The notes under the pieces: model-generated | Databases searched by the model: none | Told to the model about the DNA's origin: nothing | Seen by the model: only the letters and a program-made list of their open reading frames with translations | NCBI GenBank assembly: GCA_000004695.1 | Contig: CM000154.2 | Span: 4,224,001 to 4,288,000, forward strand | DNA: 64,000 nucleotides | Direction: 5' to 3' | From: Dictyostelium discoideum | Lineage: Eukaryota | Part shown: positions 6,498-8,233 of the stretch, piece after piece | Layout of the letters: each line of letters starts with the position of its first letter | How positions within the stretch are numbered: position 1 is the first letter of the stretch | Program-made: the position numbers and the translations under genes

Positions 6498-8233
6498 TTA
6501 TTGTTGTTGAGCATGTAAAGTTTTATGAGCAATTGTAACAGCTTTAACAGATAAATAACTTTGAATTGCATATTCAGATAGGTCACGACCAATACCAGAT
6601 TGTTTATAACCACCAAATGGTATTGATGGCATGATTGAATAATATTCATTAATCCAAACTGAACCACTTTTTAATTTATTTGAAACATTTAATGCTAAAC
6701 TGATATCTTTAGTCCAAACACCAGCTGCTAAACCATAGGTTGTGTTATTTGCTCTTTTAATTACTTCATCAACAGTTTTGAATGGTAAAATTACAACAAC
6801 AGGACCAAAGATTTCTTCTTTACAAATTGTCATATCATCAGTGACATTGGTGAAAATAGTTGGTTGAACGAAATAACCTTTACCATCGGCATGATGATAA
6901 TTACCACCACCTAAATGACAAGTTGCACCTTCTTCTTTACCTTTTTGGATGTAACCTAATACACGATCATGTTGTTGTTTACTAACTAATGGGCCTAAAT
7001 TTGTACCATTTACATTTGGATCACCAACTTTTAATAATTTAATATTCTCTGTGAAAATTTGTAAAAATGCTTCATAGATATTCTCTTGAACAAAGAATCT
7101 TGATGGAGCACAACATGACTGCCTATAAAATTTTAAAAAGGGTGAAGAGGGGGGTTGAAAAAAAAAAAAAAAAAAAAAATTAATTTTCCAGTTCCAATTT
7201 TTTCTTTTGGTTAATTAAAAAAGGTAAGATAATTATATATATATATACTTACATGCTATTGGCGAAAACGTAATCCTTAGCACATTGTGCAATATGGTTA
7301 ACGTCACAGTCGTTAAAGAAGATATTTGGTGATTTTCCACCAAGTTCTAATGTCACTGGTTTTAAATTACTCTTTGCTGCACCCTCCATAATTAATCTAC
7401 CAGTTATAGTTGAACCAGTGAATGAAATCTTATCGATATCCATATGATGTGATAATGCACTACCAACAGTTGCACCAAACCCATTTACTAAATTGAAAAC
7501 ACCAGGTGGGAAACCAGCTTCTTTAATTAACTCACAAAGATATAACGCAGTCAATGGGGTGAATTCAGATGGTTTAGCAACGATTGTGCAACCTGCAGCT
7601 AAAGCTGGTCCCAATTTCCAACATAATAACATACATGGATAATTCCAAGCAACAATTAAAGCAACTACACCAATTGGTTCATGTCTGGTAATTGATGTAT
7701 ATTCATTACTAATTGGAATGGTTTTACCTTGAATTTTATCAGCCCAACCACCGAAATAACGAAGAGTCTTTTCTGATTGTGTTATATCATATCCTTTTGA
7801 TGCTGTCAATGGTTTACCATTATCTAATGTTTCTAATTGTGCTAAATTATCTTTATGTTTTTCAATTAAATCTGCAAATTTTAATATAATTCTACCTCTA
7901 TCTTCAGATGTCATTTTACTCCATTCTCCATTTTCTAATGCTTCTCTTGCTGCTTTCACTGCCTATAAAAAAAAATTTTGAAAAAAAAAAAAAAAAAAAA
8001 AAAGGGGTGAAGAGGGGATTAATTTTCCAGTTCCATTTTTTTTTTTTTTTGTTTTATTAAAAAATTATTATATATATACTTACAATATCAACATCAGCTT
8101 TATCACCTTCAGAAACTTCACAAATTAATTCTTCATTCACTGGATTAAATGTTTTAAATTTCTTTCCAGAAACTGACTCTACCCATTCATTATTAATAAA
8201 TAATTTTGTGTTTGGTAATTGAACTTTTGACAT
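6498..8233 (-). CDS. aldehyde dehydrogenase, class 1/2 family (paralogue A), three exons
   Basis: Exons 8233..8084 ([20 protein letters not shown]…DVDI), 7962..7253 ([14 protein letters not shown]…YVFANSM, phase 2) and 7122..6498 ([10 protein letters not shown]… catalytic Cys… [20 protein letters not shown]…HAQQQ*). Donors are GTAAGT at 8083 and 7252; both acceptors are TTTTATAG. Strong end-to-end match to ALDH1A/ALDH2 (ELGGKSP, QGQCC-type catalytic site, EEIFGPV). About 494 aa. Confidence 0.85.

What the first reader, a model, noticed from the sequence alone, without database searches (positions are those of the whole stretch)
7123..8083. ALDH paralogue A carries an extra intron that is a near-copy of its own first intron (apparent intron gain by duplication)
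All three ALDH genes share the 5' intron after codon 50. Gene A alone has a second intron (7252..7123) between …ANSM and QSCC…; paralogues B and C are continuous there. The two introns of gene A are clearly homologous on the plus strand. Both run ctataaaa … A-run … ggtgaagagggg … ttaattttccagttcca … T-run … ttaa…aaaa … atatatatacttac. Both are also inserted before an exon starting GCAGT (…ATT|GCAGTG and …CAT|GCAGTC). The introns of genes B and C are unrelated in sequence. This is the pattern expected for intron gain by intron transposition or reverse splicing into a site resembling the original flanks, or by local duplication. It is rarely caught this cleanly.
Basis: seen in the sequence. Interest (0 to 1): 0.6.

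Follow-up and report, generated by a model that had tools for sequence, protein, structure and literature searches.

The report
Intron copied within one ALDH gene

Summary
Gene A (minus strand, 6498-8233) has two GT-AG introns, 8083-7963 and 7252-7123. Removing both gives exactly the annotated D. discoideum AX4 protein XP_635634.1/Q54FY3. The two introns are homologous end to end. They share an 18-mer and a C-rich 13-mer found nowhere else in the 64 kb. Overall percent identity does not show this: unrelated AT-rich introns score the same.

Comparison with eight other genomes gives the direction of the event. Intron 2 is present in three D. discoideum strains. It is precisely absent from the orthologue in two 'cf. 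discoideum' lineages, D. citrinum (two genomes), D. dimigraforme and D. firmibasis. It is also absent from every B and C paralogue and from the closest ALDH homologues of D. purpureum and T. lacteum. Intron 1 of the two 'cf. discoideum' genomes already carries both blocks, so intron 1 is the source.

There is no target-site duplication and no duplication of exon flanks. TGCAGT occurs only twice in the spliced mRNA, at the two exon junctions.

Verdict: a real, recent intron gain by same-gene intron duplication. This is a new member of a known but rarely documented kind. The route is unresolved between reverse splicing and microhomology-templated DNA repair. Splicing itself and the genome-wide copy number were not testable here.

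The parts
6498..8233 (-). ALDH gene A (three exons: 8233-8084, 7962-7253, 7122-6498 including the stop codon)
   Evidence: The spliced translation is a 494-aa ALDH identical to D. discoideum AX4 XP_635634.1/Q54FY3.
7963..8083 (-). Intron 1 (121 nt, phase 0, after codon 50). It is the ancient, shared intron position and the source of the copy.
   Evidence: The same position is occupied in paralogues B and C, in all eight other group-4 Dictyostelium genomes examined, and in a fourth D. dimigraforme paralogue. Both blocks are already present in intron 1 of the 'cf. discoideum' genomes that lack intron 2.
7123..7252 (-). Intron 2 (130 nt, phase 2, inside the Met codon just before the Q-S-C-C catalytic-cysteine motif). 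It is the newly gained copy.
   Evidence: Boundaries are GTAAGT...TATAG. If the intron is retained, a TAA stop follows the ATG at once. It is present only in three D. discoideum strains and precisely absent elsewhere.
8018..8035 (-). Block 1 (TGGAACTGGAAAATTAAT) in intron 1
   Evidence: Exact 18-mer, found only in the two gene A introns within the window and the fetched loci.
7179..7196 (-). Block 1 (TGGAACTGGAAAATTAAT) in intron 2
8005..8017 (-). Block 2 (CCCCTCTTCACCC) in intron 1, a C-rich part of the pyrimidine tract
   Evidence: It occurs only twice in 64 kb, against 0.06 expected by chance.
7140..7152 (-). Block 2 (CCCCTCTTCACCC) in intron 2
7210..7225 (-). ACCTTTTTTAATTAAC in intron 2. 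This is an older intron-1 feature that D. discoideum intron 1 no longer has.
   Evidence: It occurs once in the window, against 0.06 expected by chance. ACCTTTATTAATTAAC is present in D. dimigraforme intron 1 at L003 6185-6200.
7118..7122 (-). GCAGT, the first 5 nt of exon 3. They are identical to the first 5 nt of exon 2 (7962-7958). Together with the preceding T they form the junction hexamer TGCAGT.
   Evidence: TGCAGT occurs in the 1485-nt spliced CDS only at nt 150|151 and nt 860|861, the two exon junctions.
8732..10371 (-). ALDH paralogue B (single intron 10221-10070). It has no intron at the intron-2 site: AGT ATG CAG CTA is continuous.
11159..12795 (+). ALDH paralogue C (single intron 11309-11460). 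It has no intron at the intron-2 site.

Best explanation
**Shown.** Intron 2 of gene A is a young spliceosomal intron. It arose in the lineage of D. discoideum sensu stricto when the complete intron 1 of the same gene, from GT to AG, was copied 710 coding nucleotides downstream. The copy is in the same orientation. It landed between the T and the G of ATG in ...AAT AGC AT^G CAG TCA..., and no target base was gained or lost. The target is the only other TGCAGT in the mRNA, which is the same hexamer formed when exons 1 and 2 are joined.

**Inferred.** The intron now behaves as an ordinary intron. Its removal restores the reading frame across the catalytic-cysteine motif, and it has no function of its own.

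**Inferred route, about 0.45 of the total.** The excised intron-1 lariat, still held in its spliceosome, was reverse-spliced into a junction look-alike in the same transcript, or into the displaced DNA strand of the transcribed gene. The product was then fixed by reverse transcription and recombination with the gene.

The stated confidence refers to 'gain by copying intron 1', not to the route.
For: 1. **Two-intron model.** It reproduces the annotated AX4 protein exactly. Independent annotations of two other D. discoideum assemblies give a 494-aa product from 1750-bp and 1740-bp gene spans.
2. **Homology of the two introns.** The blocks unique to them are reported. Eight introns (intron 1 from five genomes, intron 2 from three) align collinearly from the 5' splice site to the 3' splice site.
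3. **Distribution.** Intron 2 is present in AX4, ACTFIR and ACTFIW. It is precisely absent in cf. discoideum Y and Z, D. citrinum (two genomes), D. dimigraforme and D. firmibasis. It is absent in all 16 B/C-type genes of those genomes and in a fourth D. dimigraforme paralogue. There is no intron at that site in the closest D. purpureum and T. lacteum genes.
4. **Phylogeny.** Neighbour-joining trees of genes A and B place the three intron-bearing strains together, with cfY and then cfZ outside. The gene C tree, which lacks cfY, also groups them. In the neighbouring gene the branching of AX4, the other two strains and cfY is unresolved.
5. **Direction of the copy.** Intron 1 of cfY and cfZ, which have no intron 2, already has block 1 and block 2. 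D. citrinum, D. dimigraforme and D. firmibasis intron 1 lack block 2.
6. **Empty site.** In cfZ it reads AATAGCATGCAGTCATG, identical to the AX4 flanks joined together. There is therefore no target-site duplication or deletion.
7. **Target hexamer.** TGCAGT occurs only at the two junctions of the CDS. That is 1 site in about 1484, or about 1 in 110 if one mismatch is allowed.
8. **Flanking exons.** They show no similarity beyond the hexamer.
9. **Constraint.** Exon 3 remains under constraint among the intron-bearing strains, with 6-7 synonymous against 1-2 non-synonymous codon differences.
10. **Plausibility of the RNA route.** D. discoideum has many reverse-transcriptase genes and mostly RT-type intron loss (PMC4683709). 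Spliceosomal reverse splicing and two laboratory-captured intron transpositions in yeast are cited in PMC10996645.
Against: - No RNA data were available here, so splicing of intron 2 is inferred, not observed.
- Only three D. discoideum genomes and one genome per outgroup lineage were compared. In the neighbouring gene, AX4, the other two strains and cfY are almost equidistant. The branch on which the gain falls is therefore short.
- Intron 2 keeps ACCTTTTTTAATTAAC, which D. dimigraforme intron 1 has but D. discoideum and cfY intron 1 have lost. This allows an older copy followed by losses.
- The whole D. discoideum genome could not be searched, so further copies in other genes are not excluded.
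- For the RNA route specifically, the spliceosome is not known to read five bases of the 3' exon. The 1+5-nt identity is just as well explained as microhomology used in DNA repair.
Confidence: 0.85

Rival explanations
1. The event is the same (intron 1 copied into the TGCAGT site) but took place at the DNA level. A double-strand break between T and G of the target was repaired by copying from the intron-1 region 0.84 kb away on the same chromatid or its sister. Synthesis was primed on the 1-nt T match and resolved by annealing at the 5-nt GCAGT microhomology. Because the microhomologies lie directly against the intron ends, the copied piece is exactly the intron.
For: - The 1+5-nt identity at the two junctions, and its uniqueness in the CDS, is the classic footprint of microhomology-mediated repair.
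- The source lies in cis and close by.
- G at +4 of exon 3 is found in D. discoideum, while cfY and four more distant genomes have A. This could be a co-copied exon base.
- Break repair has been proposed for new Daphnia introns (cited in PMC3514964 and PMC3488318).
Against: - cfZ has the G at +4 without the intron, so co-copying is not required.
- A 1-nt primer match on the left side is weak.
- No convincing short direct repeats flank intron 2. There is only ATAG..CA near both ends.
- Templated insertions of 130 nt are longer than the usual products of such repair (from general knowledge, not tested here).
Confidence: 0.35
2. Intron 2 is older than it looks. It was copied from intron 1 in the common ancestor of the discoideum complex, or earlier. 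It was later removed precisely from cfY, cfZ and possibly others, either by recombination with cDNA or by gene conversion from paralogues B and C, which lack the intron.
For: - Precise intron loss is about ten times more frequent than gain in D. discoideum: 441 losses against 40 putative gains (PMC4683709).
- The three paralogues show mosaic stretches of 94-100% identity, which indicates gene conversion.
- Intron 2 retains an intron-1 feature now seen only in D. dimigraforme intron 1.
Against: - It needs at least two independent precise losses (cfY and cfZ), and four or more if the copy is placed before the D. citrinum/D. firmibasis splits, against one gain.
- Block 2 is absent from intron 1 of D. 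citrinum, D. dimigraforme and D. firmibasis. The copy therefore cannot predate the discoideum complex unless those introns all lost it.
- Even under this rival, intron 2 is still a gained copy of intron 1. Only the date changes.
Confidence: 0.12
3. Both introns are copies of a dispersed mobile intron family (introner or introner-like element) that inserted independently at the two sites.
For: Such families exist in fungi and algae, and some are under 200 nt and non-coding (PMC3609843, PMC10996645). The genome could not be searched as a whole.
Against: - No other copy of any of the three blocks was found in the 64-kb window or in about 110 kb from eight related genomes.
- The intron-1 position is ancient and shared by all paralogues.
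- There is no target-site duplication.
- Folding is no more stable than for shuffled sequences, with z from -0.6 to +0.6 for the D. discoideum and cfY introns. No Rfam family reaches its threshold.
- A genome-wide BLAST survey of 40 putatively gained D. discoideum introns found a source for only two, neither a transposable element nor an entire intron; none of its discordant positions matches this one (PMC4683709).
Confidence: 0.04
4. The similarity is a chance resemblance of two AT-rich, low-complexity introns, or a segmental duplication of intron plus exon.
For: Global identity and local alignment scores are no higher than between unrelated AT-rich introns.
Against: - The G/C-containing blocks are unique to the two introns and far exceed shuffles.
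- The same blocks are conserved in orthologous introns of four other genomes.
- Exon flanks are not similar: the observed score is reached by 87% of shuffles upstream and 12% downstream.
- The protein is collinear with its paralogues, with no inserted repeat.
Confidence: 0.01

Closest known systems
Same-gene intron duplications (SGD) in fungi (van der Burgt et al. 2012; Collemare et al. 2013, PMC3609843); three such introns reported in C. elegans (cited there)
   Same: A near-copy of an intron sits at a second position of the same gene. Half of the fungal cases show no duplication of flanking exons and are attributed to transposition within the same transcript. These introns are ordinary in length and stability.
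   Different: The fungal cases were found by near-identity within single genomes. Here the copy is more diverged. Polarity, the empty target site and the state of the source before the event are all documented in sister lineages. The organism is an amoebozoan.
Intron transposition and introner-like elements (Mycosphaerella, Torriani et al. 2011; ILEs; Micromonas introners), as summarised in PMC3514964, PMC3609843 and PMC10996645
   Same: A new intron derives from a pre-existing intron sequence and is inserted precisely with its splice sites. Reverse splicing is the favoured model.
   Different: Those are multi-copy families spread over unrelated genes, and ILEs are longer with stable folds. 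Here only two copies are known, both in one gene, and neither folds stably.
[quoted passage not shown]
   Same: A complete spliceosomal intron moved to a new site in a transcribed gene.
   Different: That was an engineered reporter and an event observed in the laboratory. Here it is a natural, fixed event. I could not read that paper, so its target-site features were not compared.
Intron gains in Dictyostelium catalogued by Ma et al. 2015 (PMC4683709)
   Same: Same organism and the same standard of proof: a clear phylogeny plus an identified source.
   Different: Their two sourced gains derive from part of an intron of another gene and from CDS plus UTR of another gene. [quoted passage not shown] Their supplementary table has no D. 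discoideum-only intron at CDS position about 860. Their pipeline required one-to-one orthologues with D. purpureum and at least 85% similarity over 80% of the intron, and this case would fail both.
Drosophila Xdh intron that arose by duplication of a pre-existing intron (Tarrio, Rodriguez-Trelles and Ayala 1998, PNAS; recalled from memory, title confirmed only as a cited reference)
   Same: A new intron in a conserved enzyme gene is homologous to an older intron of the same gene and restricted to one clade.
   Different: The details of target-site similarity in that case were not checked here.
Intron gain by tandem duplication of an AGGT-containing exon segment (for example potato RdRp, PMC4974935), and break-repair-associated gains in Daphnia (Li et al. 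2009, cited in PMC3488318)
   Same: Recent gains limited to a lineage or population, with an identifiable sequence footprint.
   Different: In tandem-duplication gains the intron consists of duplicated exon sequence, which is not the case here. Daphnia gains mostly lack an identified source and carry short flanking repeats. Here the source is known, and the only footprint is the shared T|GCAGT.

Membership tests
U2-type (GT-AG) spliceosomal intron | GT at the 5' end, AG at the 3' end, and a pyrimidine-rich 3' region | tested here: met
   The intron reads GTAAGT...T22..C-rich..TTTTATAG in AX4. Strains R and W have GTACGT, the same donor as gene B intron 1.
U2-type (GT-AG) spliceosomal intron | Removal restores an open reading frame collinear with homologues, and retention truncates the protein | tested here: met
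   The spliced product is identical to XP_635634.1 and collinear with B, C and all orthologues. Retention gives ATG TAA.
U2-type (GT-AG) spliceosomal intron | Spliced junction observed in RNA | not testable with these tools
   No transcript data were reachable. No Logan or NCBI record could be retrieved for the exact protein.
Recently gained intron (criteria of Logsdon et al. as quoted in PMC4683709: clear phylogeny plus identified source) | Presence restricted to one clade, absence at the exact site in sister and outgroup lineages | tested here: met
   Present in 3 of 3 D. discoideum genomes. Absent in 6 genomes of 5 other lineages, in all paralogues, and in D. purpureum and T. lacteum.
Recently gained intron (criteria of Logsdon et al. 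as quoted in PMC4683709: clear phylogeny plus identified source) | Identified source sequence that predates the gain | tested here: met
   Intron 1 of cfY and cfZ carries block 1 and block 2 although those genomes lack intron 2.
Same-gene intron duplication by transposition of the intron alone | Homology covers the whole intron from 5' to 3' splice site, in the same orientation | tested here: met
   The eight-intron alignment is collinear from GTAAGTATATA to TTTTATAG.
Same-gene intron duplication by transposition of the intron alone | Flanking exon sequence is not duplicated (this distinguishes it from segmental duplication) | tested here: met
   The 100-nt exon flanks score no better than shuffles. 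Only T|GCAGT is shared.
Introner / introner-like element family | Many near-identical copies in unrelated genes | not testable with these tools
   No copy was found outside gene A in the window and eight loci. The full genome was not searchable. The metagenome scan gave only chance 18-mer hits.
Introner / introner-like element family | Unusually stable predicted secondary structure (ILEs) or target-site duplication (transposon-type introners) | tested here: not met
   Fold z-scores are -0.54 and +0.39. The empty site equals the joined flanks, so there is no target-site duplication.
Intron gain by tandem duplication of exon sequence (AGGT model) | The intron consists of a duplicate of adjacent exon sequence | tested here: not met
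   The intron is AT-rich non-coding sequence homologous to intron 1, not to exon 2 or exon 3.
Break-repair-associated intron gain (Daphnia type) | Short direct repeats or microhomology at the boundaries of the new intron | tested here: inconclusive
   Source and target flanks share 1+5 nt. No clear direct repeat brackets intron 2 itself, only ATAG..CA near both ends.

The most novel reading that the evidence does not exclude
The copy went to the only other place in the mRNA that reads TGCAGT, the sequence of the donor intron's own ligated exon junction. This would mean that spliceosomal intron transposition is guided by the cognate exon junction, in a homing-like way reminiscent of group II introns. 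If so, the intron-lariat spliceosome of Dictyostelium can re-insert its intron into a junction look-alike. That would turn a long-debated mechanism of intron gain into something testable in a genetically tractable organism with this very intron and target.
Probability: 0.2. Interest if true: 0.75.

Novelty: new member of a known kind. Interest (0 to 1): 0.45.

Why it matters
How new spliceosomal introns arise is a long-standing open question. [quoted passage not shown] The only genome-wide Dictyostelium survey found a source for 2 of 40 putative D. discoideum gains, and neither source was a whole intron (PMC4683709). A major review calls duplication of pre-existing introns negligible in most lineages (PMC3488318).

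This case supplies what such studies usually lack:
- the donor intron and its state in relatives that lack the copy;
- the exact unoccupied target site;
- no footprint other than a 1+5-nt identity between the donor junction and the target;
- fixation within a narrow window (about 2-4% CDS divergence).

It lies in a haploid model organism with efficient gene targeting. The two competing routes, reverse splicing and microhomology-templated repair, could therefore be tested directly with the natural donor and target. It is a single event and does not change the general picture.

Tried and rejected
- **Whole-intron identity and Smith-Waterman scores.** They are not informative, because homopolymer runs make unrelated AT-rich introns score alike. 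The longest common substring with at least 4 G/C is also weak: 23 of 3000 shuffles reach 13 nt because C-runs join T-runs. I replaced these with counts of G/C-containing 8-mers and the uniqueness of the blocks.
- **Metagenome scan for block 1.** It returned at least 120 hits. All are single chance 18-mer matches on unrelated contigs, and none has a true block 2 nearby.
- **Structured or functional RNA in the introns.** Rfam gave only a sub-threshold chance hit (24 bits against a gathering score of 92). Folding is no better than for shuffles.
- **Exact-protein look-up of gene A.** I could therefore not check a second AX4 assembly or transcript contigs.
- **Prior report of this case.** No paper holds Q54FY3. 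The Ma et al. supplement has no matching entry at CDS position 859-862. I could not establish the DDB_G identifier.
- **Papers not held.** Lee and Stevens 2016 is not in the library, and no genome paper for the new assemblies was found.
- **Met in place of the usual Gly before Gln-x-Cys.** I considered that the intron insertion introduced it and rejected this. Gene B and all intron-less orthologues also have Met.
- **Complementarity between block 1 and the exon.** ACTG in block 1 is complementary to CAGT in the exon. I considered this a possible guide and dropped it, because 4 nt is chance level.
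Full report
**What is in the window.** The window is very AT-rich. Positions 6.5-12.8 kb carry three aldehyde dehydrogenase genes: A (minus strand, 6498-8233), B (minus, 8732-10371) and C (plus, 11159-12795). All three have an intron after codon 50, in phase 0. Gene A alone has a second interruption. On the minus strand, intron 1 runs 8083..7963 (121 nt) and intron 2 runs 7252..7123 (130 nt). 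Both begin GTAAGT and end TTTTATAG. Intron 2 is in phase 2 and splits the ATG of ...F-A-N-S-M|Q-S-C-C..., the catalytic-cysteine motif. If it is retained, ATG is followed directly by TAA. Removing both introns gives a 494-aa protein identical to D. discoideum AX4 XP_635634.1/Q54FY3. The window is therefore AX4, and the two-intron model is the annotated one. The Met that replaces the usual Gly of the motif is also present in gene B and in all intron-less orthologues. The intron did not introduce it.

**Is the similarity of the two introns real?** Overall identity cannot answer this.
- The match fraction of intron 1 vs intron 2 is 0.77. Intron 1 vs the D. citrinum intron, which lacks the blocks, gives 0.76.
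- Local alignment scores are dominated by homopolymers. A1 vs A2 scores 82 and B1 vs C1 scores 80. Other AT-rich stretches of the window reach 61-62, against 72 for the internal parts of the two gene A introns.

The G/C-containing words do answer it.
- TGGAACTGGAAAATTAAT and CCCCTCTTCACCC each occur exactly twice in 64 kb, once in each gene A intron.
- The two introns share 13 G/C-containing 8-mers, against a mean of 0.73 and a maximum of 8 in 3000 dinucleotide shuffles.

Intron 1 reads block1-block2-T23, and intron 2 reads block1-T22-CAA-block2. Two other D. discoideum strains have block1-T-run-CAAAAC-block2 in intron 1 as well. AX4 intron 1 has therefore simply lost the spacer.

**Relatives.** A protein search found orthologues in new assemblies of the D. 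discoideum group. I fetched the locus from eight genomes. The A-B-C cluster is syntenic in all of them.
- The gene A orthologue has both introns in D. discoideum ACTFIR and ACTFIW, whose CDS is about 98% identical to AX4.
- It has only intron 1 in 'cf. discoideum' Y (about 97% CDS identity to AX4) and Z (95%), D. citrinum in two genomes (91%), D. dimigraforme (91%) and D. firmibasis (90%).
- In each of these the coding sequence runs straight through the site. In cfZ it reads AATAGCATGCAGTCATG, exactly the AX4 flanks joined. The insertion therefore added the intron and nothing else, with no target-site duplication and no deletion.
- All B-type and C-type genes, and a fourth D. dimigraforme paralogue, are continuous from codon 51 to the end.
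- The closest D. purpureum gene has introns elsewhere, and the T. lacteum gene has none.
- Neighbour-joining trees of genes A and B place the three intron-bearing strains together, with cfY and then cfZ outside. The gene C tree, which lacks cfY, also groups them. In the neighbouring gene the branching of AX4, the other two strains and cfY is unresolved, so the branch concerned is short.

**Direction of the copy.** Intron 1 sits at an old, shared position. Intron 1 of cfY (ATAACTGGAAAATTAAT-T11-CAAACCTCTCTTCACCCC) and of cfZ (TGGAATTGGAAAATTAAT-T13-..CCCCCTCTTTGCC) carries both blocks, although these genomes have no intron 2. Intron 1 of D. citrinum, D. dimigraforme and D. firmibasis lacks block 2. 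So the blocks arose in intron 1 within the discoideum complex, and intron 2 was copied from it afterwards. Intron 2 also keeps ACCTTTTTTAATTAAC, which occurs once in the window against 0.06 expected by chance. The motif survives as ACCTTTATTAATTAAC in D. dimigraforme intron 1 but is gone from D. discoideum intron 1. In this respect intron 2 preserves an earlier state of its parent. Across the window and about 110 kb from the eight genomes, the blocks occur only in gene A introns.

**The target.** The exon flanks of the two introns share nothing except T|GCAGT. This rules out a segmental duplication. That hexamer occurs in the 1485-nt spliced CDS at exactly two places, nt 150|151 and nt 860|861, which are the two exon junctions. 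If the pre-insertion allele read TGCAGT as in cfZ, the intron went to the single look-alike of its own ligated junction, 1 site in about 1484. If it read TGCAAT, as in cfY and the more distant species, the target was one of about 13 sites with at most one mismatch, and the G at +4 may have been copied along with the intron. With present sampling the ancestral state is ambiguous.

**How it most likely works.** Today intron 2 is an ordinary intron.
- The splice signals are canonical and are conserved in three strains, with GTACGT in two of them, the same donor as gene B's intron.
- The coding sequence downstream is under constraint: 6-7 synonymous against 1-2 non-synonymous codon differences in exon 3 among the strains.
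- No structured RNA is predicted.
- By inference only, TTAAT in block 1 followed by some 45 nt of T/C-rich sequence that includes block 2 looks like a branch site plus pyrimidine tract. This could explain why these blocks persist.

The origin is a same-gene intron duplication. Two routes fit the data about equally.
- **Reverse splicing.** The intron-1 lariat is reverse-spliced into the junction look-alike of the same transcript, followed by reverse transcription and recombination. Exact GT-to-AG boundaries and the same orientation are inherent to this route. D. discoideum is rich in reverse transcriptases and loses introns by the mirror-image process (PMC4683709). Spliceosomal reverse splicing and two captured transpositions in yeast are documented (cited in PMC10996645).
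- **Break repair.** A break in the target is repaired by copying from the intron-1 region 0.84 kb away, using the 1-nt and 5-nt microhomologies. Because these abut the intron, the copy is exactly the intron.

I put the gain by copying at 0.85. Within that, the RNA route is at about 0.45 and the DNA route at about 0.35.

**Rivals rejected or weakened.**
- An older gain followed by losses needs at least two precise losses and changes only the date.
- A dispersed introner family is unsupported. There are no other copies in the sequence I could search, no target-site duplication and no stable fold. It cannot be excluded without the whole genome.
- Chance similarity and segmental duplication are refuted.

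**Comparison with the literature.**
- The closest category is the 'same gene duplications' described in fungi. Half of those lack duplicated exon flanks and are ascribed to transposition within a transcript. Three such introns are reported in C. elegans (PMC3609843).
- Multi-copy introners and introner-like elements differ in copy number and structure (PMC3609843, PMC3514964, PMC10996645).
- The Dictyostelium survey of Ma et al. 2015 found sources for two gains only, neither of them an entire intron. Its table has no entry matching this site. Its filters (one-to-one orthologues, at least 85% similarity over 80% of the intron) would have missed this case.
- I found no paper mentioning this protein.

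The finding is therefore a new, unusually well-documented member of a known kind. It is not a new kind.

**Limits.** There is no RNA evidence and no whole-genome search. Only three D. discoideum genomes were available. The identity of the 'cf. discoideum' isolates is taken from the record names. The Tarrio et al. 1998 comparison rests on memory.

Noticed in passing
window 6498-12795 (genes A, B, C): The three ALDH paralogues are mosaics. A and C are 94-98% identical over CDS nt about 450-720, where A and B are about 80-84% identical. All three are 97-100% identical at nt about 1125-1260 and 61-80% identical elsewhere. This pattern points to repeated gene conversion within the cluster.
   Followed up: partly
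window 7963-8083 (intron 1) compared with L002 6151-6279 and L004 6151-6273: AX4 intron 1 lacks the T-run plus CAAAAC spacer between block 1 and block 2. The two other D. discoideum strains, cfY, cfZ and all intron-2 copies have it. This is an AX4-lineage deletion of about 20 nt, or possibly a homopolymer assembly issue.
   Followed up: partly
L003 7889-9440 (minus): D. dimigraforme has a fourth, more distant ALDH gene (61-66% amino-acid identity) directly downstream of gene A. It has the same codon-50 intron position. It is absent at that place in the other genomes.
   Followed up: no
window 7119 (position +4 of exon 3); L005 and L006 equivalent sites: The Gln codon next to the new intron is CAG in D. 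discoideum and cfZ. It is CAA in cfY, D. citrinum, D. dimigraforme and D. firmibasis. It may be a co-copied base from the donor's exon 2, or an older polymorphism.
   Followed up: partly
window 5551-6435 (plus), repeats about 6080-6190: The gene downstream of A contains tandem GGAGTAGGGGTAGAGGTAGG-type repeats (as read on the minus strand). It has no Pfam match. Its repeat region differs in length between strains, and identity between AX4 and strain R drops from 96% to 91% there.
   Followed up: no
window 34507-41238 (plus): The only long stretch with 35-39% G+C is a talin-type gene. It comprises two long ORFs with PTB/IRS, talin rod and I/LWEQ domains, presumably joined across a short intron near 37.6 kb.
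   Followed up: no
L006 6151-6294: Intron 1 of 'cf. discoideum' Z has an A26 run and a T26 run that pair into a long hairpin (-29.6 kcal/mol, z -3.9). This is homopolymer pairing with no counterpart in the other introns.
   Followed up: no
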